DNA of 43,932 bases from Conidiobolus incongruus B7586. Taxonomy: Eukaryota. Shown here piece after piece: positions 9,208 to 43,932 of this stretch. The notes under the pieces were generated by a model, which saw only the letters and a list, made by a program, of their open reading frames with translations, did not search any database and had not been told where the DNA came from. How positions within the stretch are numbered: the first letter of the stretch is position 1; the number at the start of each line of letters is the position of its first letter. Made by a program: the position numbers and the translations under genes. Where the stretch lies: positions 1-43,932 of the forward strand of contig JNEM01013818.1 of NCBI GenBank assembly GCA_000697335.1, read 5' to 3'.

Positions 9208-11615
9208 TTAATCCACTGTAGGAGATATACTCATAAGAATTTTCAGCCATTCCAAGCCATCAAACGATCCATGTTGATTTTGAATACTTAAAGGACACGG
9301 CCCTGAAGCGAATAATAAACTAGGACACTCTCTTTGCAATTGATGATAATGAAGGTGAAATAGAGTAATCGCATCGGTTGGTACTTTAATCGGCACTGGA
9401 TTCCAATTTAACACCAAACTTTGAGAAAAATTCTGTTTCATTCTTGCAGGATTTGGATGAAAGTTATTTCGAATTTGATCCACTTGATAGGGAAGTAAAA
9501 CTCCAAGCTGTAGAAATAAATCAGAAAGACTGTGTAATATGCTAAGTAAGGTAGAAACCATGGGTGGAATTAACTGATGACAGTGTGGGAAGCCATTATA
9601 GAGTCTTTGGAGTAGGTATGGCATTCTCATAAAGAGGAGTAAAGGTGGTTCAATTTTGTCAGGATGATCTGGATCATAGCTTGTAACCTTGGAAAGTCCA
9701 ATAAAACATTTAGAAAATTGATCCAGAGTAGTGTCAGTTTCAGAGGTAGTGAATTCTCTAGGAGAGAGTAAATTCAATTTTACTTGATGAAGAGATCTAT
9801 TTTGTTGAATAAATCGGATATAATCTGATGGATCCTCTTCTTCACAGATTAAATTCATCTCCCACCAGATATAGTTATTCATAAAAGTTGTAGTTAAAGG
9901 AAGTTTTGAGGTAATTTGAGATTCTGTATCAATAGGCTGACTTTGAGGAACAAGAGCTGAAACAAGAAAAGGCTGCTTGTCAGGATCGGTAAGATTTTCA
10001 GCAGATTCTAGCAAATCCAACATATTATTAGTATTAGGCATTGAAGCTTGAATAAAATCTCGTTTGAATATGTCCCACCCGATAAAATCAGCTTCTGTCG
10101 GAGTAGGTTTGGTAACAGGTGAATCCGACTGTTTATCTTGAAAGATCTGTAATAGGCAGTGTATTGTAAGGTAGTCACCATCTCTTTTAATCATATATTG
10201 ATGCATGAATATATCTTCATCGTTATATGAAGCTTCATCTTGAAACAAATAAAAAGGTTGAGTATAATCAATTAGTTGTTTCAATATATCGTGGCCATAA
10301 GCTTCATCTAAGTCTCTATAGCAAATCCTATGAATACACTGCGTTAAAGGCAAATTGGGATCAAAGTTGGGATTTGATCCTAAATACATATTAATAGATC
10401 TGGATTTAAGATATTTAGGATCTGACCAATGCACTTGGTGAGTAAGATGTGGTGCATTCAATGCTCTACAATAATTAAATCTAGAGAGTACAGTGAGATC
10501 TTTAGATTCCAATTCGTTGTCAATTTTTAATCGTTTTTCAACTATTTCTGATGTAGGTGAACTAGGTTCCTTAATAAGATTGATGCTGTAAAGGTCCCAA
10601 TGAGACATTGCTAATTGCTGAATTTGAGATGGTGCGTCCAGATAACTCATAAAAGTAGTTTCTATCACTCCAAAGCCACACTCCAAGAACTCTTTTTTTA
10701 GTTGAGGAAGTTCGAAATCTTTTTTATATGGACAACAGTTAATGCAAACAGCCTGTATTTCCAATTTAGGTGTATCCCTATTGAATATAATTAGATCAAA
10801 TTAATATACATTCTTATTTAATCAAATACGCTTTCATTTGACCCAAATATTGATTGATTAAATAGTGGTTTAAAAGGACCGTTAGATCTGGTACAAATAT
10901 TGGGGAACTAAAAAATCAGATTAATAAGCGTTATAATGTGTTTGAATATTCGCTATATTTCAAAATACCTAGTATCTTCGACCATTTCTAAACCTTTGAG
11001 TTCTCTGTCTATTTGTTCTTTCGATGCAAGCCTTAAGTATACGATTCTTAATAATTTTAAAGGCTTTCCGTTTTCTTGAATCAAATCAGCTAATAATGAG
11101 CTAATAATATTGTGGAGTAATAAAGGTTGAGGAGAGTTCGAAGGGGTTTTTTCAACGCTTCCCAATGATATAACCTGATTTGCCTTTGAAAACAGTTTAA
11201 TTTATCAACAAAAGAAAAGAAATAAATAAGGTTACTAGAGAATAAGAATTTGGATCTTGCCAATTTATGAAGTTATGATATCCAACATGAAACAGAGCCA
11301 ACTAAAAGTTAATTAGTTGAAATGTTGATATAAAAATGATAAATAAAAATAAAGATTCAAGCTAAGGGAAAAATGTTACCTCACCTTACTCCAACTTGGG
11401 TCAGTAATTTCACTTGTAATTCTAAAATATTCAAGTGATGCTTTTTGTAATTTGGAATAGGGTGGTAAAGTTAAATGAATTTGATTAGCGGTATCATTTT
11501 GTTTAGCAACAGCATTTAACTCATCAATTTGTAAATGCTCTTCAAAAGCTCTAGGACTTCCTTTATCTAATATGATGACAGTACCAACAGTGCTATTTTC
11601 TTGAGGCAATATCAT
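9208..11615 (-). CDS. Probable Integrator subunit 13 / Asunder-like protein, 5 exons, ~719 aa
   Basis: Exons 11615-11385, 11301-11236, 11183-10969, 10907-10830 and 10777-9208 splice in frame. Colinear motifs TVIILD, SLEYFRI, HWDLYS and HQYMIKRDGDYLTIHCL resemble INTS13 TVFVVD, SMEYCRI, HFDLAS and SHMLSSHGGEIFLHVL (recalled from memory). Confidence 0.65.
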
Positions 11616-17219: not shown

Positions 17220-18365
17220 TTACAGATTTTTTGTAACATCCAATAGTTTTGATTCTTCCTCTTGGCTAAGCTCAGATTGAGCTTTGGATTTTTTAGTTTT
17301 GATAGTTTCATCTGAGAGGGAAGGCAAATTTTGGTTTGCAATCATATCGAGAATAGGTGTTGAGATCATGGGGAACAAGTGAAATTTATCTGGATCATCC
17401 ATACTTGCTACTTGTGCATTAAATTGGTCTAAACACTATGGTATTAGTCAACATTGGAAGAAGAATATTAATCCCTTACCATTTACTTGGACTATTTTGG
17501 TATAAATAATTCCACATGCTTTTTGAAAAGTAGGATCTAGACATAACGAGATCAGAGTGACGAGACCAGAAATAGCAATGGATAGACCTTTCCAAAGAGA
17601 GAGTCGATTATCTAACCAACCTGCATGTTTAGCTATGAAATAAATCAAAGGTCCTAGCTGTGTTAATAATGGAGCAATTGGATATAATAAACTTCTTTTA
17701 ATCAACTTTCTGATTCGATTCTTAGCTTCAACAGTCATTTTAGAAATTTCATCGTTGATTTTGTCCAATTGATCTGGATACCTATCGACCTTTTGCCAAA
17801 TTACAATGCAAATAATGGGGCAGTAGACTAGAGAAAGCACTTTTAAACTTCCTATTAAACACCACACTAAAGCTACCGAATAAGGTGAGTCTGAGTCTTT
17901 TATTAAGCATGACTCAGTTTGTGGATCATAGCCAACACTCTGCGTAGCAATGAAAGGTGCAGTTGAAAAAGCCGATATACCAATCAAAGCTATCCAGTAA
18001 TATATTTCTACCCATTTATTAGGCTCAATGTGATGCAATACGATTAATTGTAAATTAAAAGCAATGCCAATGCTAGCTAAACAATAAAGATTATCAAAGA
18101 AGATGATGAGAGAGCTTAACGCTTTGCACCAATTGTTATCCTCCTGTGCTTGTGGTAACAAAAAATTTAGTAAATGAATCACTACATCTGCAATACCTAT
18201 TGCTATGAGAAGTCTTAGAGAGACTCGATCAGTTAATTTTGGGAAATAGATCCTTAGGCCGAATAAACTGATTAATACGGTCACAGCAGACACCATTCCC
18301 AATAAATTAATTAGATTAATTACATTATTATCATCTTTTTGATATCTTCCCTGTTCAACTTCCAT
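17220..18365 (-). CDS. 7-transmembrane GPCR-like protein (Git3/cAMP-receptor-like), 2 exons
   Basis: Seven hydrophobic segments, DRVSLRL after TM1, Cys before TM3 and in ECL2, RSLLYP in TM6, LDPTF after TM7. Intron 17479-17429 joins it in frame to ORF 17220-17402. Confidence 0.85.
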
Positions 18366-19510: not shown

Positions 19511-20781
19511 CTATTGAAACATTTCCTTATACATCGCATGTAATTTAGTTGCTGCAACGTCGTTAGATGCTAGGAATACGCCAAAAGCTCTAGCAAATTG
19601 ATTACGATTGTTGATAGCCTGATCGTTAGAAAAGTGAGGATGGTTTCGGGTAAAGTTGTGAAATTCATTCAAAATCCAATTGATATCTGTAGGGCTAGGG
19701 TCATCATACTGAGGTTCTTTAGAATCCATAAAAGGCTGAAAATTGTTATCTATAAGGAATTGATTAGGTGACTGTGTAAACTGTTTTGGTGACTCGGGAG
19801 AAGCAGATCCCTGGAGAAGTGAGAGAAGATCTCTAGATTTTTTAGCCAAATCCTCCTGAGAATGGGGAGGTGATTGAGGGTAGGTGGGTAGTGACTGGTA
19901 TCGAAGTTTTGAAATGGAAGGTTTTTGAAATTCACCATATTGTTGAAGGGAAATTGACGGATCGTAGCTATATTCTCTATTTATATTATTATCTTGATAA
20001 CCTCGACCCACACTTCTAGAAGCTTCCATTTGATGGTCAGAAGCCTCCTCGGCAGTATCAGAATCATGGTAGAGTTTTTTGTTTCTAATACCACTCATAG
20101 TTTTTTTATTTTTGAAATGATTGGCATTTTGCAGTCTTGAAGTGCGGTTGGAAGATGTTCTTTGTGGGTTTCTAGACGGGCTGTACTGCTGAGCTATTGG
20201 TTGTTCAGGAGGTGGCTGGACAATACTCTTACAATGTCTTGAAAACACTGCGGATAGAGCTTGAATATCTGCTTCGTTATAAGTCCATAAGCAGCATACT
20301 TCCACTAAATAGATGATGAGTTAGTATAAAACGTTATTGGCTGAATAATGAATATTATTACTATCTTGATTTCGATACATAACAAACCTATCAGTGATTT
20401 CATATTGCAAGTCACGAGTAAAATATAAACTCAAATTAACAGTATTAAGACGATTTAAAACAAATAAACCAAAGCGGGGTTCAACAGATCTATAGGAATA
20501 AAACATTTAATATAATAAACAATATAGAGTCTCAATAAAACAGTACCTTTCAAAAACAATCAAAGGACCTTCAATTCCTTTACGAACCTAAATAGTAAAT
20601 AAAAATTAACAAATTACAAAATAAGGATGAAAATTGAAAATACCCAATCGCGAGTACCCTCCTTGATACGATATAAAGCGGCATGACTACAAACATAAAG
20701 GATGGAAACAATAGTGGAGTCATATCTCTTTAAAACTTTAAAGTTCAATTGGTTTCTGTATTGATCATCCAAATGTAACAT
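19511..20781 (-). CDS. DCP1: mRNA decapping factor Dcp1 (EVH1 domain plus disordered tail), 4 exons
   Basis: LNFKVLKRYD..SHAALY..W|VRKGIEGPLIVFER|SVEPRFGLFVLNRL..CLWTY matches the Dcp1 EVH1 signature. Confidence 0.92.
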
Positions 20782-31739: not shown

Positions 31740-33257
31740 TTAGTGTTTAACGGTTACAATGCGGCATTTAGGAGGAAGAGGAGGATTACTGGAGGAGCTA
31801 ACGGGAGAGGAAGTATTTGGTACAACATAAGGTCCAGTAGGGATTGCTGTAGGGCCAGGGGTACTGGATTCTGAAACAAGGTAAGGACCAGTGCTGATCT
31901 TTGTAGTAGATGAGATGTTGGATGATCCTGAAGGTGGTACATTGGAGATGATGGTAATTGACAGGTGATGACTAGTAGGAGATGGTGTAGTTGATGAGAT
32001 GGTAGATGATCCTGAAGGAACTACACCTGAAACAGTGGTGGATGATTGAGGATAGCCATTAGAAGACAAGGCGGTTGATGAAACAATAGTTGATGTGCCT
32101 GATGGCACTACATGTGGAGTAGAGGTTGATGATTGGGGATAACTAGCAGAAGATTTGGTCGTTGGAGCAATGCTTAATGAACTTGATGGGATCAAACTCG
32201 ATATAATGCTAGACTTGCTAGTGGTGGATGATTGGGGATAACCTGTTATAGAAGAGCTAGTGGTAGACTTCTTAGTTGATGGATAAATAGAATTTGATGT
32301 AGTAGTAGGTGATGAAATTTGCGCTAGAGTTGTGGTAGAAATATTTGTAGTTGTAGAAGTCAACGTAGTGAAATGGCTAGGAGATTGGTTACTAGTTGTA
32401 ACAGTGGTAGTGGTAGTAGTAGAAGTAGTAGTAATTGTAGTGGTCACAGCAACTGAAGGATTTTTACTAATAATATCATTAATAAAATCCCTATATAGTG
32501 CGACTTTAGTATAGACCGACGGTAGATCTTTAGTTCCACATCTGGTGCCAAAGCTTACAGTACCAATCAAATAGACGTCATTAGGACTTTGGTGATAAAA
32601 GAGTGGGCCTCCAGAATCTCCCATACAAGGATTCTTCAATCTAGAACCAGCGCAGAGCTGCTTGTCTTTCAAAACTTCACCGGAGCCCAGCCATCTCTTA
32701 TAGCATTCTTGGAAGTTAGCAACCTTAAGATCAGCCTTCTGCAATTGAACAGCTTTTTTGGAATCGACACTGGTGATACCATATCCCATAGCTAGAGCTT
32801 CTGTACCTTCCTTACTAAAGGTACCATCATCCAATTTGACTGCAGAAGGGTTGAATGGGACTGTTCTGCCAGGATCCTGAGGTTTAATCTTAATTAACAA
32901 AATATCATCATAATTGGGATTCTTAGAATCGAAGCCAGGGTGAGCTATCTGATCCTCCGCTACATAAATAATTTCATTATTCTTGTCTGACAAAGTACTT
33001 GTATCTTTGGTGCCACTATTAGCGAATACTATCTTCAAATCGCCTTGATTAGTCGCCTTACAGTGAGCAGCAGTCAATATAAAGTTCTCTGCAATTCTGG
33101 TGCCTGTACAATCCTGTTTGCCGTTGGTGAATATATTGGCTACATAGTTATAGTCATCAGGGTTTTGAACGTCAGTACCTCCAATAATTTCTGGAGCCGC
33201 TGCTACCATTTTGAAGGTAGTCAAAGCAATCACTAATGACTGAATGATTGGATTCAT
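31740..33257 (-). CDS. Secreted S1A (trypsin-fold) serine protease with a long Ser/Thr-rich tail
   Basis: Signal peptide, IIGG mature N-terminus, LTAAHC, DDILL, GDSGGP. About 235 aa of S/T/P-rich tail. Intronless. Confidence 0.95.
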   Translation of the reverse strand: MNPIIQSLVIALTTFKMVAAAPEIIGGTDVQNPDDYNYVANIFTNGKQDCTGTRIAENFILTAAHCKATNQGDLKIVFANSGTKDTSTLSDKNNEIIYVAEDQIAHPGFDSKNPNYDDILLIKIKPQDPGRTVPFNPSAVKLDDGTFSKEGTEALAMGYGITSVDSKKAVQLQKADLKVANFQECYKRWLGSGEVLKDKQLCAGSRLKNPCMGDSGGPLFYHQSPNDVYLIGTVSFGTRCGTKDLPSVYTKVALYRDFINDIISKNPSVAVTTTITTTSTTTTTTVTTSNQSPSHFTTLTSTTTNISTTTLAQISSPTTTSNSIYPSTKKSTTSSSITGYPQSSTTSKSSIISSLIPSSSLSIAPTTKSSASYPQSSTSTPHVVPSGTSTIVSSTALSSNGYPQSSTTVSGVVPSGSSTISSTTPSPTSHHLSITIISNVPPSGSSNISSTTKISTGPYLVSESSTPGPTAIPTGPYVVPNTSSPVSSSSNPPLPPKCRIVTVKH

Positions 33258-34509: not shown

Positions 34510-34625
34510 ATTGAATTATATTATTATACAGGCATATTGAATTATATTATTATACAGGCATATTGAATTATATTATTATACAGGCATATTGAATTATATT
34601 ATTATACAGGCATATTGAATTATAT
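34510..34625. repeat. Perfect 26-bp tandem minisatellite, ~4.5 copies
   Basis: Unit ATTGAATTATATTATTATACAGGCAT repeated head to tail with no spacers. Confidence 0.95.
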
Positions 34626-36030
34626 AATTATATATTTATATATTTACATAAATGTTTAAAGTAATTGATCATTAGATAATATATTAAATCCCACTAATAA
34701 TAAAATATTTTAATATATATACCACTTAATATTAGTATTATAATCTGAAATAAACTGGAATTATAGTAATATATGTAACATTTCTATTCATAAAAGTGCT
34801 TGCAATATTAAAGTTTATTTGAAATTAACATATTTAATTTCCCAGTTCACAATTTATCAGAAACTCGAAGTTTTTATCTACATATTTGAATTGGTGAAAA
34901 AGATGATAACATCAATAATAAAGACCAATATTTTTGATTATTATTCCTCTCAAATTTATAATATTTCGATTGTAATTTCAATGCTATTTGATGTTTATAT
35001 CAATTTGATTACCATATTATGTTTACATTAGCTTATATCTGATATTACAAGCGAATAATGAATGTCAACTAGAACTAATAAAGGTTCATATAGATATTTA
35101 TAAGACTTTGATATATATAGTGAGTTGAATAATTATTAAATAATGTAAAATTAATGATATATAATAGCTTCGATATAATCAATGATGTTTATAAATATAT
35201 TAATTTGCGAAATGTACTCAAAAAATTCTCATATTCCAAAGATCACATGATGATAAGTAATTAAAAGTATAAATATGATTATTCTATATATTTTCTTAAA
35301 AAGGTGTAAACATAATATATGGTCCAGTTAATATTTATATAGTTTTTCAAATACTAGACAATAATATTTGAAATAAAATGATTTCGAAAAATATTAATTC
35401 CAAATCCAGAGATAGGTATATAGAGATATATGACTGAAATAAATTTCATTAATATAAATCTTAAAATATGTTGTATAATATGTAATGAATTTAATGTGAT
35501 CTAATATCTAACTTATAAATTAACATTTTAATATATGATGATATAAACTATAGATAAATTTAAAGATATGATATATCGAATTAAATTATTTTTCAATTCG
35601 ATCCATTTTAAATTAATTACAAGTTCAAATCAAATGGTTTTCCAGATATTTTGATGATAAATATCAGTTATTGAAATATTGAAATATATAATATATTATT
35701 ATAAGATTAATAATATATTATATAAATAAATAATTCCAACTTAAAATTTGTAATAATCCATTAATAAATAAATGATAAATCATATATCATATATCATTCT
35801 AGTATAATATTTTATTGATTAAACAAGTTATCAGATATACTAAATAATTTGAAAGTAAATGAAATCAGATAAGAAAATCCAATAATATTATCCCATAAGA
35901 AATGGATTGAAATGAATGTTCAAAATTTGAATTTGAGTGATGTTTCTAAAAATTAACAACATAGCACTTTGCTTAAAAATATTAAATTTAATCAATTTAT
36001 TTTTACTATCAAAGTCAGATATTTTCCAAT

Positions 36031-37565
36031 ATGTTAGGTTTACTCCGTACTAATGTTAAATCAGCTTCCTTATTAAAGGTAATACTTTAAATGTTCTATT
36101 TTATTCGTAAAAAATATATTATCAATTGAACAAGATCAAATTTCATTAAAATAACATTCAATGTGTATTTTATAGCATCTGTTCTTAGAATTTTTAAAGT
36201 TATGAAAAATATTTCATTTCAGGAATAAATTTTAATACAAGCAGTTTTCATCAAACTTTATATGAGAAAAAATTACTCTTTTAAACCATATATAAAAGAT
36301 TAGCTAATATAATTTTCAAAACAATTCATCTAACTCTGAATTCTTATATTAGGGTGCTTTGGCCCGTCAAATGGGAACTGTTGCTTCTCGTGATGCCCTT
36401 CCCTTCACTTCTGTAAGCTAAAATACCTACCTATATATAAATATTGAAATTTAACTCAACAAACCGTATTTATAGTCTTTCGATGGAAACAAGATTGGTG
36501 GAAAATACACTGTTACTTTGATTCCTGGTGACGGTATTGGTCAAGAAATTACCAACTCTGTCAAAACTGTCTTTGAAGCCCTCAAAGTACCCGTTAACTG
36601 GGAACAATTCGATGTTTCTGGTTTCACCCCTGAATCCGATTCCTTATTCAAGCAAAGTATGGAATCCCTTAGACGTAACAAAGTTGGTTTGAAGGGTAAT
36701 AGCATATATTTTAATTTGCTAAATGTAAAATCTAAATTTATATATTTTGTTTTTAGGTATTCTCTACACTCCAGTCTCTCACTTAGATCATGCTTCCTTC
36801 AATGTCACCCTCCGTAAGGATTTAGACATTTTCGCTTCTATTTCCGTTGCTCGTAACTTCCCTGGTTCCCAACCCCGCCATGACAACATTGACCTCGCCA
36901 TCATCCGTGAAAACACTGAAGGTGAATACTCTGGTCTCGAACACCAATCCTATCCCGGTGTCGTTGAATCCCTCAAAGTCATCACCAAAGAAAAGTCTGA
37001 ACGTATTGCTCGTTTCGCTTTCGACTACGCCCTCCAAAACGGTCGCAAGAAGGTCACCTGTATCCACAAGGCCAACATTATGAAGCTCGCTGATGGTCTC
37101 TTCTTGAATTCCTGCCGTCGTGTCGCTGAAGAATACAAATCCAGCGGTATTACTTTCTCTGATATGATCGTCGATAACGCTGCTATGCAAATGGTCTCCA
37201 AGCCCCAACAATTCGATGTCATCATCACCCCCAACTTGTACGGTAACATTTTAGGAAACGTCGCCGCTGCCCTCGTCGGTGGTCCTGGTGTCATCCCTGG
37301 TTCCAACTTGGGTCGCGAATACGCCATCTTCGAACCTGGTTGTCGTCATGTTGGTGCTGATATCCAAGGTAAGAACAAGGCCAACCCCACCGCCATGCTC
37401 CTCTCCTCCGTCATGCTTCTCCGTCACCTCCATCTTGACGCCTATGCCGATAAGCTCAGCCATGCTGTCTTCAGCACCATCCAACATGGTCAAGTCAGAA
37501 CTCCTGATATGGGCGGTAATCACACCACCACTGATTTCACCAATGCCGTCATTGCCAACCTCTAA
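36031..37565 (+). CDS. IDH1: Mitochondrial NAD-dependent isocitrate dehydrogenase regulatory subunit 1, 4 exons
   Basis: Exons 36031-36078, 36353-36412, 36476-36695 and 36757-37565. Presequence MLGLLRTNVKS, IPGDGIG, RENTEGEYSG, HKANIMK. PNLYGNILGN has Asn in place of the Asp residues of catalytic IDH2. Confidence 0.95.
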
Positions 37566-38401: not shown

Positions 38402-40966
38402 TTAAAAGCTCCCTCCGCCAACTTTACCACCAAGTGATCCAGATCCCAAAGGTCCATTACTCTGCTGCAGAGGAGGATTTGGAAGAGGTGAGGGATTGCC
38501 AGACTGATTCAAAATTGGGTTAGGGTTAGGACCAGTAAAGTTGTTTAGTTGATTATTAGGAATTCCCTGATTGAAAGGGTTATTGGCACCGATATTTCCA
38601 ATAGAGTTTCCAGGTTGTTGCCAGTTCAAATTAGTGTTAGGGTTAAAATTTAAAGTAGGGTTATTGCTGATGAGTTGGTTTAAATTACCAGGTGCTCCTC
38701 CTCCCAAGTTCATGTTTTGATTGAAGTTGGGTAATTGGTGAGGGTTGGGGTTATTAAAATTGCCAAGATTATTGGAAGGATTGAAGCCGGTTCCAAAGTT
38801 TTGAGGGTTTAAAAAGTTATTAGGGTTTTGAAATTGATTACCTTGAGCGTTGGGATTTCCTCCAAAGCTACTGTTATTAGCGTTGTTGTTGCCCAACCAT
38901 CCAGAAATAGTGGCAAGACTTGTACCAGATCCTGAAATATTATTGAAGTTCTGATTGAAGCTGGGAGTGAATGGATTTGTACCAAAATTATTCAAGTTGG
39001 GGTTAGTACCACCAGGGTTCTGGCTAAAACTGGGGTTCAAAGTATTGGGGTTATTGTAAAAGTTAGGGTTCATGAAGTTTGATGGTTCTTGACCTCCAAA
39101 ATTGAATTGGTTACCAGCATTAAACTGTCCAAATGAAGTATTATTGCTAGGGTTCAAAGCGTTGAAGCGTCCTTGGTTGTGTTGATCATAGTTTTTAACA
39201 CTTGATACTCCTTTGATTGACCTGTGTTCGTCTTTGGAAGATGATCCAAATCCAAATAATGAGGAAGATTGACGCTGTAATTCCTCTAACTGAGTGACTT
39301 GGTCACGGTATAATTCTTTCTGAGCATCAGCAGCGGCTTTATCTACAATTGAAATGGCTGGTTCTTCCTGGAAGCTCTGATTACCTAATGAGGAGATAAG
39401 TCTTTGGATATACTGCTGCTGAGTGGGGAGATTTTCTCCAATGGGACGACCAGTCTTTTGGGAGTGCTTCTGACGAAGAGCAGTTGCAAACGATACAATA
39501 CTGCTATCTAAAAGTTGTTGAGCAATAGGGTCTTTGGTGACATTGCTAGAATTCAAAGGGTTGAGAGTAAGACTCTGCCAGACATATCCCACATCGGCGA
39601 TTTGTTGGACATAGTTAGCCAATTCAACATGATATTGGTTAGTAGAGAGATCAACACTCTGGAGAGGAGGATAGCTGTATCCGAGAAGGACATGGGCGTG
39701 ATCCTTCTTGACAGAAACAGCGAATGCGTCAGCCAAATTGACATCTGGTGCATCGCTCTGAAGAGTGACAACATCAGCATAGGGAGCAAAGTGACGAGCG
39801 CGAGAGATGGCGGCTTCGAGTGTATTGGCATACATATAGTATCCTTCTTGAGAGCGAGGAAGATTCCAATCCCAGAATACCTTATCCAAACCAAGCTGAG
39901 CGGCCAAATCTTTAGCATGATCCAAAGATGTGTTTCTAGTATTTTCCAACCATTGTTCAACCTCTTTAGCAGCTTGTCCGGGTGACTGACCAGCCTTGAG
40001 GCGAATAGCTTGGGCAATAGCGTCACGGTAAGTTAATACATTAGCACTATTCATCCATGAGTTGCGAATAAAGTTCAATTGATCAGGAGTACTAGCACCA
40101 GAAGCTTGAGCTTCGCGAAGAACTTCAGCTAGAGGTCTAGTTGGGACCGTGGCACCCAAAATGTAAGGATGATCACGAGTGTCAAGGTTGCTAGCAACAT
40201 AACCAGCTTGGAGAGATGACAATTTGGCAAAAATCACGGTTTCAGTATCCATAATATCGGATTGGGCACGGAGAGCAACCAAGCGATTAATATGCTGACC
40301 AACAGGATAAAGAACTTTGATATTGGCTTGATTCAAAATGGAGGAATAAGTTTGCTGAGCATCATCCAATTGAATACCGGCAGCACCACGTTCGATCAAT
40401 AGACGTGAGAGACGCATCAAAGAGGGAATATTGGAACCCACAAGGTCAGCGTCAACTACGATAGGACGGTAGAAGTCAACCGGCTCGGGAAGTTCCGATT
40501 CGAATCCAATCTCACTTCTCAAGCGGTGACGTAGCTCAACCTGACGACGGTCAAACCACACCTGGGAGCGGAGAATTTGATCGACTTTGCGGGGTAAAGT
40601 ACTTAATGGGGTTGCTGGAGAGGGAATAGGACTGCTAGGATCACCTTGCGTTTCAACAATCACCTGTTGATTGGAAATGTAAGACAATTCCAAATTCTGC
40701 GTACTGGTAGTGAGGACTTGGGAAGGGTTCCAAGTGTCAAAAGCAACAGTTCCAAGACCCTGGGCTTGGATTCTATTTAAAATCGTCCAAAGTTTTTTGC
40801 TCAAAGGAGCTCCAGCATGCTCAAGTTTAAGTGTGCCTCTCTTGGACACAATAATATCGGCGTTGTAAGGACGACGCGTATGAGTGAAACGATCACTTCT
40901 CCATTTTTGTTCAAGTTGATATACTTGGTTTTTGAAATTATTGCCATCATCTGAAATAAACGACAT
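38402..40966 (-). CDS. Isocitrate lyase-like pseudoenzyme with a C-terminal N/F/G/P/Q low-complexity domain, 854 aa
   Basis: ICL-fold motifs RFTHTRRPY..IVSKRG, RPIVVDAD, ERGAAGI, HINRLVALRAQSDIM, RDHPYILG, PRSQEGYY, FAPYAD. The catalytic KKCGH motif is absent. Intronless. Confidence 0.9.
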   Translation of the reverse strand: MSFISDDGNNFKNQVYQLEQKWRSDRFTHTRRPYNADIIVSKRGTLKLEHAGAPLSKKLWTILNRIQAQGLGTVAFDTWNPSQVLTTSTQNLELSYISNQQVIVETQGDPSSPIPSPATPLSTLPRKVDQILRSQVWFDRRQVELRHRLRSEIGFESELPEPVDFYRPIVVDADLVGSNIPSLMRLSRLLIERGAAGIQLDDAQQTYSSILNQANIKVLYPVGQHINRLVALRAQSDIMDTETVIFAKLSSLQAGYVASNLDTRDHPYILGATVPTRPLAEVLREAQASGASTPDQLNFIRNSWMNSANVLTYRDAIAQAIRLKAGQSPGQAAKEVEQWLENTRNTSLDHAKDLAAQLGLDKVFWDWNLPRSQEGYYMYANTLEAAISRARHFAPYADVVTLQSDAPDVNLADAFAVSVKKDHAHVLLGYSYPPLQSVDLSTNQYHVELANYVQQIADVGYVWQSLTLNPLNSSNVTKDPIAQQLLDSSIVSFATALRQKHSQKTGRPIGENLPTQQQYIQRLISSLGNQSFQEEPAISIVDKAAADAQKELYRDQVTQLEELQRQSSSLFGFGSSSKDEHRSIKGVSSVKNYDQHNQGRFNALNPSNNTSFGQFNAGNQFNFGGQEPSNFMNPNFYNNPNTLNPSFSQNPGGTNPNLNNFGTNPFTPSFNQNFNNISGSGTSLATISGWLGNNNANNSSFGGNPNAQGNQFQNPNNFLNPQNFGTGFNPSNNLGNFNNPNPHQLPNFNQNMNLGGGAPGNLNQLISNNPTLNFNPNTNLNWQQPGNSIGNIGANNPFNQGIPNNQLNNFTGPNPNPILNQSGNPSPLPNPPLQQSNGPLGSGSLGGKVGGGSF

Positions 40967-42816: not shown

Positions 42817-43932
42817 TTATAATGCTTTATAACCTAATATATTAGGCGTATCTTCTGAAAATCCAGTAATCGCTTCCTTAGTACCCATCTTGATCAAAGT
42901 CGAGAGAATATTTCCTGGAACAGTTCCTTCTGCGAGTAAACTAGCGGCCAATCCAGCAATATGAGGACATGACATTGATGTTCCACTTTTGGTTAAGGTG
43001 CCTGTTGGCTTGTTAGCAGTGGAAACAACTCCAACACCAGGGGCCAGGATATCAATACATTTACCAAAGTTAGAGAACCCAGCTTTAACATCATTGATAT
43101 TAGTTGCACCAACTGCAATAACTCCTTTGGCAGTAGCAGGTGACTTTTTACAAGCATCATAGTTATTGTTCCCACCAGAGACAACTACTACAATACCTTT
43201 AGCAATAACTTCTTCAACAACCGTATTGAGAAGCTCGTTGATTGGTTCAAATGAGATACTCATACTGACTACATTTCCTTTAAGACCATTTGCATTCTTA
43301 GCAACCCAGTTGAACCCAGCAATTGCATCACTAGCTGAACCTTTACCCTGATCATTCAAAACCTTAACAGCAATCAAATTCACTTTCTTAGCAACTCCAT
43401 AAGTTTTTGATCCAATAGTACCGGCACAATGTGTTCCATGACTATAGACATCAGTATCTGAATCAGAATGGACATTTGTTCCAAATTTAGCACGACCTTC
43501 AAAATCAGCATGATTAACATAAATCCCACTATCAAGAACATATACATTAATGCCTAATCCTGCATTGGGGTTGTAAATATAGGTAGATTGTGTTGTAGAA
43601 TTTAACTTCTCACGATGAGATATTCTAGCAAGACCCCAAGGAGCATTTTTCTGAACTTCATCTACTTCAGCAATTTGGTCTGGAACGATTGAAACGACAT
43701 TGGGTAATTGTTTTACCTTCTCAAGAGTCTTGACATCCAGAGTAGCAGATATACCATTTAACACAGCATCATATTTATGGTGGATTTCATTGATGCTTGA
43801 TCTATCGACAAATAAATCGGTAACGGAGGCAACATGGCTTTCGAAATCAATACGACTGTTACGATCGAATGCTACAATATATTTATCTTTGATTGATATG
43901 GACTGACTTAGCTGTAAGAATAGTGAAATGAA
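42817..43932 (-). CDS. Subtilisin-like S8A (proteinase K-type) protease; 5' end lies beyond the window
   Basis: The frame is open to the window edge (FISLFLQLSQS..KYIVAF, I9 prodomain). APWGLARIS, VLDSG, HGTHCAG, SGTSMSCPHIAG. Confidence 0.96.
   Translation of the reverse strand, partial: FISLFLQLSQSISIKDKYIVAFDRNSRIDFESHVASVTDLFVDRSSINEIHHKYDAVLNGISATLDVKTLEKVKQLPNVVSIVPDQIAEVDEVQKNAPWGLARISHREKLNSTTQSTYIYNPNAGLGINVYVLDSGIYVNHADFEGRAKFGTNVHSDSDTDVYSHGTHCAGTIGSKTYGVAKKVNLIAVKVLNDQGKGSASDAIAGFNWVAKNANGLKGNVVSMSISFEPINELLNTVVEEVIAKGIVVVVSGGNNNYDACKKSPATAKGVIAVGATNINDVKAGFSNFGKCIDILAPGVGVVSTANKPTGTLTKSGTSMSCPHIAGLAASLLAEGTVPGNILSTLIKMGTKEAITGFSEDTPNILGYKAL

What the first reader, a model, noticed from the sequence alone, without database searches (positions are those of the whole stretch)
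39400..40966. Intact but catalytically dead isocitrate lyase: a repurposed pseudoenzyme scaffold
Seen: an uninterrupted ORF that keeps the structural motifs of fungal long-form ICL, including the inserted domain, while the active-site motifs are replaced. Canonical to observed: YVSGWQ to YISNQQ; DADTGHG to DADLVGS; HIEDQ..KKCGH to QLDDAQQTYSSILNQ (~40330-40372); ARTD to AKLS; WMET to TLQS; YNLSPSFNW to YSYPPLQSV; FITLAG to SLTLNP. Known: the KKCGH cysteine and these residues are needed for ICL/methyl-ICL catalysis, and ICL is a homotetramer. Inference: loss of catalytic residues without stops or frameshifts points to selection for a non-enzymatic role, either a structural tetramer or a dominant regulator of true ICL.
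Basis: partly seen in the sequence, partly recalled or inferred. Interest (0 to 1): 0.85.

Follow-up and report, generated by a model that had tools for sequence, protein, structure and literature searches.

The report
Dead isocitrate lyase with prion-like tail
This fungal gene keeps the predicted shape of the enzyme isocitrate lyase but lacks its catalytic residues, is strongly conserved in Conidiobolus relatives, and ends in a long prion-like tail, so it likely works as a non-enzymatic hub for protein assemblies rather than as the enzyme that automatic annotation calls it.

Summary
All seven motif replacements are real, but the gene is longer than reported. One intronless ORF, 40966-38402 (minus strand, 854 aa), joins a long-form fungal isocitrate lyase (ICL) domain (Pfam E 7e-101; model pLDDT 83, Z 43 to a fungal ICL) to a 288-aa, nearly uncharged N/G/P/S/F-rich tail. 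The protein has no cysteine, and 0 of 5 catalytic residues named in a review remain. Two orthologues (Conidiobolus coronatus KXN69020.1 and P0017) share the replaced motifs. Against P0017 the domain is 504/566 identical with no gaps, the tail 125/288 with many gaps, and codon use resembles housekeeping genes, so this is no decaying pseudogene. Part of the Mg2+/glyoxylate site survives (Y96, S98, D172, D174, T467). The C-terminal arm that joins subunits is rewritten (1 of 24 invariant positions kept), which argues against a regulator that mixes into true ICL. Best reading: an ICL-derived pseudoenzyme whose likely oligomeric core presents several prion-like tails as an assembly hub (0.5). Rivals: metabolite sensor, new enzyme. 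Oligomer, expression, a canonical paralogue and the range beyond Conidiobolus are untested. Nine literature searches showed no description of it.

The parts
38402..40966 (-). Whole ORF, 854 aa plus stop, single exon, no cysteine
   Evidence: GC 0.36-0.52 across the ORF against 0.13-0.28 in the flanks
39269..40966 (-). ICL-derived folded region, aa 1-566
   Evidence: PF00463 aa 15-504, E 6.9e-101; AF2 pLDDT 82.6, pTM 0.83; Z 43.0, rmsd 3.0, 459 aligned to 5e9h_B; 504/566 identical to P0017 with no gap
40664..40681 (-). YISNQQ in place of YVSGWQ; Tyr96 and Ser98 kept
40433..40453 (-). DADLVGS in place of DADTGHG; both aspartates (D172, D174, Mg2+ pocket) kept
   Evidence: (invariant in 53 of 53 rows)
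40328..40372 (-). Replaced catalytic loop: HIED to QLDD, KKCGH to SSILN (aa 208-212, 40331-40345)
   Evidence: identical in all three group members
40217..40228 (-). AKLS in place of ARTD (Arg to Lys248)
39875..40141 (-). Inserted helical domain of long-form (fungal) ICL, about aa 276-364
   Evidence: insert described in PMC6788997 (passages)
39557..39766 (-). Replaced succinate-side motifs TLQS, YSYPPLQSV, SLTLNP (Thr467 kept)
39254..39556 (-). Rewritten C-terminal helical arm, aa 471-571, ending in a predicted long helix (537-571)
   Evidence: 1 of 24 canonical invariant positions kept in aa 471-560, yet 76 of 90 identical to P0017; helices predicted
38405..39268 (-). Low-complexity prion-like tail, aa 567-854 (N 26%, G 14%, P 11%, S 10%, F 9%, Q 7%; 3.5% charged)
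   Evidence: also present in P0017 (315 aa); homologous beyond composition
39152..39178 (-). Conserved short tail motif NQGRFNALN, aa 597-605
   Evidence: identical in P0017; coordinates
38894..38935 (-). Conserved short tail motif SGSGTSLATISGWL, aa 678-691
   Evidence: 11 of 14 identical in P0017; coordinates
38573..38584 (-). NNPF, holding the one NPF motif shared with P0017
   Evidence: that NPF binds EH domains is recalled, not tested

Best explanation
The gene encodes a conserved isocitrate-lyase-derived protein that lacks the catalytic cysteine loop and carries a prion-like tail, and it likely acts as a non-enzymatic oligomeric hub whose several tails would drive assembly into a cytosolic condensate or bind partner proteins. 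Shown: ICL ancestry, loss of the catalytic residues, conservation of the rewritten surfaces in Conidiobolus, and the tail in two full-length members. Predicted: the ICL fold. Inferred: (1) an ICL-family gene copy diverged fast, gained the tail, then came under strong constraint again; (2) the core self-associates as a dimer or tetramer as ICLs do, through a rewritten arm of its own; (3) the old active-site face now serves as a binding surface; (4) two to four Phe-studded uncharged tails give multivalency; (5) location is cytosolic, as there is no N-terminal extension and no SKL-type end.
For: No Cys in P0001, P0002 or P0017. Of Cys191, His193, Glu285, Arg228 and His180, named as catalytic in PMC13692135 (passages), 0 of 5 are kept (I210, N212, Q403, K248, Q199). 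Of 103 canonical near-invariant positions changed here, 93 have the same new residue in P0017; aa 72-275 are 194/204 identical. Domain 504/566 with 0 gap breaks against tail 132 identities with 16 breaks: the two lineages have been apart long enough for loosely constrained sequence to drift. Stem about 2.2-2.7 changes per site against about 0.12 inside the group. Canonical invariants are best kept in aa 1-70 (7/10), 120-170 (12/18), 217-275 (18/28) and 365-400 (8/13), worst in the loop-bearing stretches 71-119 (8/24), 171-216 (9/31), 401-470 (12/29) and the arm 471-560 (1/24). Tail: 36 and 38 N+Q per 80 aa, a 220-residue uncharged run in P0001, 25 and 24 Phe. Codon use ATA 0/40 and CGY 28/36 matches IDH1 plus PheRS (0/44, 24/31), not the other seven ORFs tested (36/210, 15/73; p 0.002 and 1e-8).
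Against: Nothing here tests assembly, partners or location. Only three members are known, two of them 495/503 identical, so conservation rests on one deep comparison. The hand-listed ligand positions are not significantly more eroded than other invariant positions (5/20 against 74/163 kept, p 0.097), so loss was not aimed only at catalysis. The kept Mg2+-side residues fit a ligand site or another reaction. The AF2 model leans on an alignment of mostly canonical ICLs (50 of 53 rows). The tail is about 8-11% proline, which (recalled) disfavours amyloid; it could be a plain flexible linker for three short motifs.
Confidence: 0.5

Rival explanations
1. It is a metabolite sensor: the kept half-site binds Mg2+ and a small 2-oxo acid (glyoxylate, pyruvate, oxalate) without turnover, and binding changes what the tail or the rewritten surface contacts. 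This can combine with the hub model.
For: Y96, S98, D172, D174, D202, T467 identical, E>D201 and R>K248 conservative. PrpB's Mg2+ pocket is D60, D87, D89, E117, with Y45 and R160 conserved (PMC11982470, passages); the matching positions here are S116 (lost), D172, D174, D201, Y96, K248 (mapping by motif spacing, partly recalled).
Against: One of four acidic pocket residues is lost; Gly-Trp after Ser98 became Asn-Gln and His180 became Gln. Kept residues may be structural. No binding data.
Confidence: 0.2
2. It is an active enzyme with a new reaction of the ICL/PEP-mutase superfamily, using Mg2+ and the kept oxyanion half-site but no cysteine.
For: Highest conservation lies in the barrel around the old site (171-216: 45/46; 217-275: 57/59 identical to P0017). 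The fold is shared with PEP mutase, oxaloacetate acetylhydrolase and dimethylmalate lyase (Z about 23). That PEP mutase works without the Cys is recalled.
Against: The new loop SSILN holds no obvious acid, base or nucleophile; most changes remove charge (E>Q, H>Q, H>N, D>S, K>S). The gene has no pathway neighbours except a convergent IDH1-like gene. An enzyme role does not explain the tail.
Confidence: 0.15
3. It is a regulatory subunit that co-assembles with canonical ICL and inhibits, stabilises or relocates it.
For: Helix-rich stretches outside the active site keep many invariant residues; the hydrophobic pattern of the C-terminal helices is still visible. Pseudoenzyme subunits of this kind exist (plant PDX1.2, recalled).
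Against: The C-terminal helices that stabilise contacts with neighbouring subunits (PMC13692135, passages) keep 1 of 24 invariant positions and average 9-12% identity to canonical ICLs. Overall identity to the 43 canonical rows is only 28-35%. No canonical Conidiobolus ICL came back, though those searches are lossy.
Confidence: 0.1
4. It is a decaying pseudogene or a sequencing artefact.
For: 57% of canonical near-invariant positions are changed (104 of 183). No RNA evidence could be obtained.
Against: Open frames of 854 and 881 codons in two lineages, where intergenic composition gives about one stop per ten codons; identical replaced motifs in three independent records; housekeeping-like codon use.
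Confidence: 0.02

Closest known systems
Fungal long-form isocitrate lyase (A. nidulans 1DQU, M. oryzae 5E9F, F. graminearum 5E9H, S. cerevisiae 7EBC; Pfam PF00463; TIGR01346)
   Same: Same start position, barrel, inserted helical domain and helix order; 28-35% identity; passes the TIGR01346 cut-off (317.6 against 275.9 bits).
   Different: No KKCGH, no Cys at all, succinate-side residues replaced, C-terminal arm rewritten, about 290-aa low-complexity tail added.
Fungal 2-methylisocitrate lyase (yeast Icl2, M. oryzae Mcl1, PDB 8Z1R)
   Same: ICL paralogue without the usual ICL role; yeast ICL2 was first titled 'non-functional' and later shown to be a methylisocitrate lyase (reference list and passages of PMC10534831), a warning against calling homologues dead too early.
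   Different: Those enzymes keep the catalytic Cys loop (the likely Mcl-type hit P0054 has KKCGH) and are mitochondrial; this protein has no loop and no presequence, and scores lower to 8Z1R than to ICL1 (204 against 278 bits).
M. tuberculosis ICL2 and its split product Rv1916
   Same: Long-form ICL with an extra C-terminal part (PMC6788997, passages); Rv1916 lacks KKCGH and has no ICL activity (PMC12088919, section 11).
   Different: ICL2 is active and its extension is a folded acetyl-CoA-binding domain; Rv1916 is a frameshift fragment without the barrel. Here the whole barrel is kept, the residues are replaced one by one, and the extension is low-complexity.
Proteins co-opted as assembly scaffolds or inert subunits (fungal HEX-1 and OCTIN, enzyme crystallins, plant PDX1.2); all recalled, none tested here
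   Same: An old fold that lost its first job and is kept for assembly or regulation.
   Different: Different folds; no sequence link; none combines an ICL barrel with a prion-like tail.

Membership tests
Isocitrate lyase family by homology (PF00463) | Profile score above the curated cut-off and ICL barrel fold | tested here: met
   338.8 bits against 26; Z 43.0, rmsd 3.0, 459 aligned to 5e9h_B, on a model built from a mostly canonical alignment
Long-form (fungal) ICL | Inserted helical domain | tested here: met
   Continuous alignment through aa 276-364 to fungal ICLs, broken in short bacterial ICLs; helices predicted
Active ICL or methyl-ICL | K[KR]CGH loop with catalytic Cys and His | tested here: not met
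   SSILN at aa 208-212; no Cys in 3 of 3 members
Active ICL or methyl-ICL | His180, Arg228, Glu285 equivalents | tested here: not met
   Q199, K248, Q403; His and Arg mapped by spacing from KKCGH, Glu by a recalled motif
Active ICL or methyl-ICL | Acidic Mg2+ pocket | tested here: inconclusive
   D172 and D174 identical, E>D201, one Asp lost to S116; binding not testable
Active ICL or methyl-ICL | Homotetramer with swapped C-terminal helices | tested here: inconclusive
   Helices predicted but sequence rewritten; the oligomer state was not established
Active ICL or methyl-ICL | Measured lyase activity | not testable with these tools
   needs an assay
Pseudoenzyme | Enzyme fold kept under selection with catalytic residues replaced | tested here: met
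   (protein-level contrast; dN/dS not computed, no orthologue DNA found)
Pseudoenzyme | No catalytic activity of any kind | not testable with these tools
   needs assays; the kept half-site leaves it open
Prion-like low-complexity domain | N/Q/G/S-rich, charge-poor, spaced aromatics | tested here: met
   36 and 38 N+Q per 80 aa (the threshold of 30 is recalled), 3.5-4% charged, 24-25 Phe; no PLAAC-type score was run
Prion-like low-complexity domain | Forms condensates or amyloid | not testable with these tools
   needs experiment

The most novel reading that the evidence does not exclude
Conidiobolus fungi turned a glyoxylate-cycle enzyme into a structural building block: an ICL tetramer bearing four prion-like tails that forms a lineage-specific condensate or gel, with assembly gated by Mg2+ and a small acid bound in the surviving half of the active site.
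Probability: 0.2. Interest if true: 0.85.

Novelty: new variant of a known kind. Interest (0 to 1): 0.62.

Why it matters
It is a clean, testable case of an enzyme recast for another job: nearly every residue around the old active site was replaced and then frozen, and a prion-like tail was added. It passes the curated 'isocitrate lyase' equivalog cut-off and P0017 is already named isocitrate lyase, so counts of glyoxylate-cycle genes and claims about ICL expression in Entomophthorales (for example the cycling ICL1_2 of Entomophthora muscae) may include such proteins. If the hub reading holds, it would be a new scaffold type in a poorly studied group of insect- and mammal-infecting fungi.

Tried and rejected
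Homodimer prediction (aa 66-565, two copies): no verdict, score 0.00, alignment not used; no evidence either way. The profile search of 50%-identity representatives could not be run, so the range beyond Conidiobolus is open. No whole genome is held, so a canonical ICL paralogue could not be sought. No sequencing runs were obtained, so expression rests on codon use only. Two metagenome scans for orthologue DNA found nothing, so no dN/dS. The three homologue searches found one close cluster only, but they are lossy: P0003 was part of the query and did not come back. P0018 (40% hit) is a canonical fragment with KKCGH. ESM Atlas: domain nearest to ICL clusters at 0.95; tail no usable hit. Trees (30 of 55 rows, 23 of 55): the group sits on a very long branch next to the other long branch P0054; an AU test rejects a clade with Coemansia ICL at p 0.028, but long-branch pull makes the origin (ICL1 or Mcl) unresolved. 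One search compared alignments sharing rows and is uninformative. A hydrophobic-moment scan did not single out the conserved tail motif as an amphipathic helix. An upstream N-terminal extension is excluded by an in-frame TGA two codons before the ATG (sequence). An intron removing the tail is unlikely: GC stays at 0.37-0.44 and the frame is open in two lineages. Literature: (listings) show no description of this protein or of a full-length ICL pseudoenzyme; one search was for Icl2; subscription journals are not covered. Supplement searches in PMC12387763 (1 file) and PMC11105155 (3 files) found no ICL entry; annotation tables not held may bear on this.

Full report
Observation. The minus strand holds one ORF from ATG 40966 to the stop at 38402-38404, 854 aa. 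GC is 0.36-0.52 along it and 0.13-0.28 in the flanks. Residues 15-504 match Pfam ICL at E 6.9e-101 and pass the TIGR01346 equivalog cut-off (317.6 against 275.9 bits). The best solved relatives are fungal long-form ICLs, aligned in one stretch through the inserted domain.

What is lost. A review names Cys191, His193, Glu285, Arg228 and His180 as the catalytic set of M. tuberculosis ICL1 (PMC13692135, passages). Counting from KKCGH at 189-193 (PMC5430663, search listing) along the alignment gives Q199, I210, N212 and K248; the Glu of WMET (assignment recalled) is Q403. So 0 of 5 are kept. The protein has no cysteine at all, nor have its two relatives. KKCGH is present in 52 of 52 other ICL hits fetched. 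ICL or methyl-ICL chemistry by the known mechanism is therefore excluded; this step is inference from established mechanism, not an assay.

What is kept. Among 183 positions at least 95% invariant in 43 canonical ICLs (55 proteins minus the 3 group members, 4 ICL2-type and 5 under 490 aa), 79 are kept. They include Y96, S98, D172, D174, D202 and T467, with E>D201 and R>K248 conservative. By the PrpB description in PMC11982470 (passages) these belong to the Mg2+/pyruvate-glyoxylate half of the site; one acidic residue is lost (S116). My list of 20 ligand positions (recalled numbering) keeps 5, against 74 of 163 others, p 0.097: erosion is broad, not confined to catalysis. By region, retention is high in aa 1-70, 120-170, 217-275 and 365-400, low in the stretches that carry the active-site loops, and 1 of 24 in the C-terminal arm 471-560.

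Orthologues and selection. The only close cluster found is Conidiobolus coronatus KXN69020.1 (P0002, partial, 90% identical) with a full-length mate P0017 of 881 aa. The window is thus most likely from a Conidiobolus relative (inference). The replaced loop and the motifs at aa 96-101, 172-178, 248-251, 401-404 and 430-437 are identical in all three. Against P0017, aa 1-566 are 504/566 identical without a gap, aa 72-275 194/204, and 93 of the 103 changed invariant positions carry the same new residue; the tail is 125/288 (MAFFT) or 132 identities with 16 gap breaks. The rewritten arm is 76/90 identical. A tree gives a stem of about 2.2-2.7 changes per site and about 0.12 within the group (23 of 55 rows): a burst of change, then constraint. 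Codon use is like IDH1 plus PheRS and unlike seven other ORFs of the window (ATA 0/40, CGY 28/36), which suggests a well-expressed gene. Limits: P0002 and P0017 are 495/503 identical, so this is one deep comparison; no DNA for dN/dS was found; the homologue searches are lossy (one search missed one of its own query rows), so restriction to Conidiobolus is not shown.

Fold. With 12 rows AF2 gave pLDDT 61; with 53 rows, 82.6 and pTM 0.83. The second model matches fungal ICLs best (Foldseek E 4e-38; Z 43.0, rmsd 3.0, 459 residues to 5e9h_B, range 3-528). The old loop is modelled as a hairpin (pLDDT about 72) and the domain ends in a long helix, 537-571. As 50 of the 53 rows are other ICLs, the match is partly by construction.

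The tail. Residues 567-854 are 26% Asn, 14% Gly, 11% Pro, 10% Ser, 9% Phe, 7% Gln and 3.5% charged; P0017's 315-aa tail has the same make-up with more Gln. N+Q peaks at 36 and 38 per 80 residues, and P0001 has 220 residues in a row without charge. The tails are homologous beyond composition (score 442 against a maximum of 174 in 200 shuffles) and share three short motifs, one holding NPF. Neither Pfam nor the ESM Atlas names it. There is no N-terminal extension (in-frame TGA two codons upstream) and no SKL-type end, though many canonical ICLs lack one too.

How it most likely works. A fold whose family is tetrameric (PMC6788997 and PMC11982470, passages), with dead chemistry, frozen new surfaces and an added sticker-and-spacer tail, reads best as a multivalent hub: the core self-associates through its own arm and presents two to four tails that condense or recruit partners (0.5). 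The kept half-site allows a metabolite sensor (0.2), which could gate the same assembly, or a new reaction (0.15); yeast Icl2, once titled non-functional (PMC10534831, passages and reference list), is the caution. A subunit that mixes into true ICL is less likely (0.1), since the helices that join subunits are the most rewritten part. A pseudogene is very unlikely (0.02). That it is not a working ICL and is kept by selection I put at about 0.93.

Known relatives and novelty. It belongs to the ICL family by descent and fails the test for an active ICL or methyl-ICL. Rv1916 also lacks KKCGH and activity, but is a frameshift fragment (PMC12088919, section 11). Nine searches (listings only) showed no account of this protein or of a full-length ICL pseudoenzyme; subscription journals are not covered. 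Two unchecked notes of this scan (e1-9852057, e1-2378675) describe other Cys-less ICL relatives without such a tail, so loss of the loop may have happened more than once; no look-alike of this sequence was on record. Verdict: real, conserved, undescribed in the searched library; a new variant of a known kind (pseudoenzyme). Interest 0.62.

Noticed in passing
window about 36031-37565 (+): Intron-containing Iso_dh gene convergent with the finding, 0.8 kb away; it reads like the NAD-IDH regulatory subunit IDH1 (recalled). IDH and ICL compete for isocitrate, but the adjacency may be chance; synteny could not be checked.
   Followed up: partly
window 9208-10650 (-): 480-aa ORF with no Pfam match at E 0.01 and weak codon bias.
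   Followed up: partly
window 19511-20098 (-): 195-aa ORF, Ser/Gln/Pro-rich, no Pfam match.
   Followed up: partly
window 31740-33257 (-) and 42817-43932 (-): A trypsin-like protease with a long Ser/Thr-rich tail and a subtilisin with an I9 prodomain; probably secreted.
   Followed up: partly
window 17448-18365 (-): 305-aa multi-pass membrane ORF with only a sub-threshold TMD0_ABC hit; looks GPCR-like by eye.
   Followed up: no
window 34510-34632: Intergenic 26-bp tandem repeat, 4.7 copies, 98% matches.
   Followed up: no
P0002 (KXN69020.1): The public C. coronatus model is partial and stops at aa 503, before the arm's end and the tail; its cluster mate P0017 shows the full 881-aa form.
   Followed up: yes
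PMC12262267: E. muscae has a gene named ICL1_2 (DSO57_1030034) that cycles out of phase with most transcripts (passages and supplement row). The name implies a second ICL-like gene; the sequence was not seen, so it may be canonical or of this kind.
   Followed up: partly
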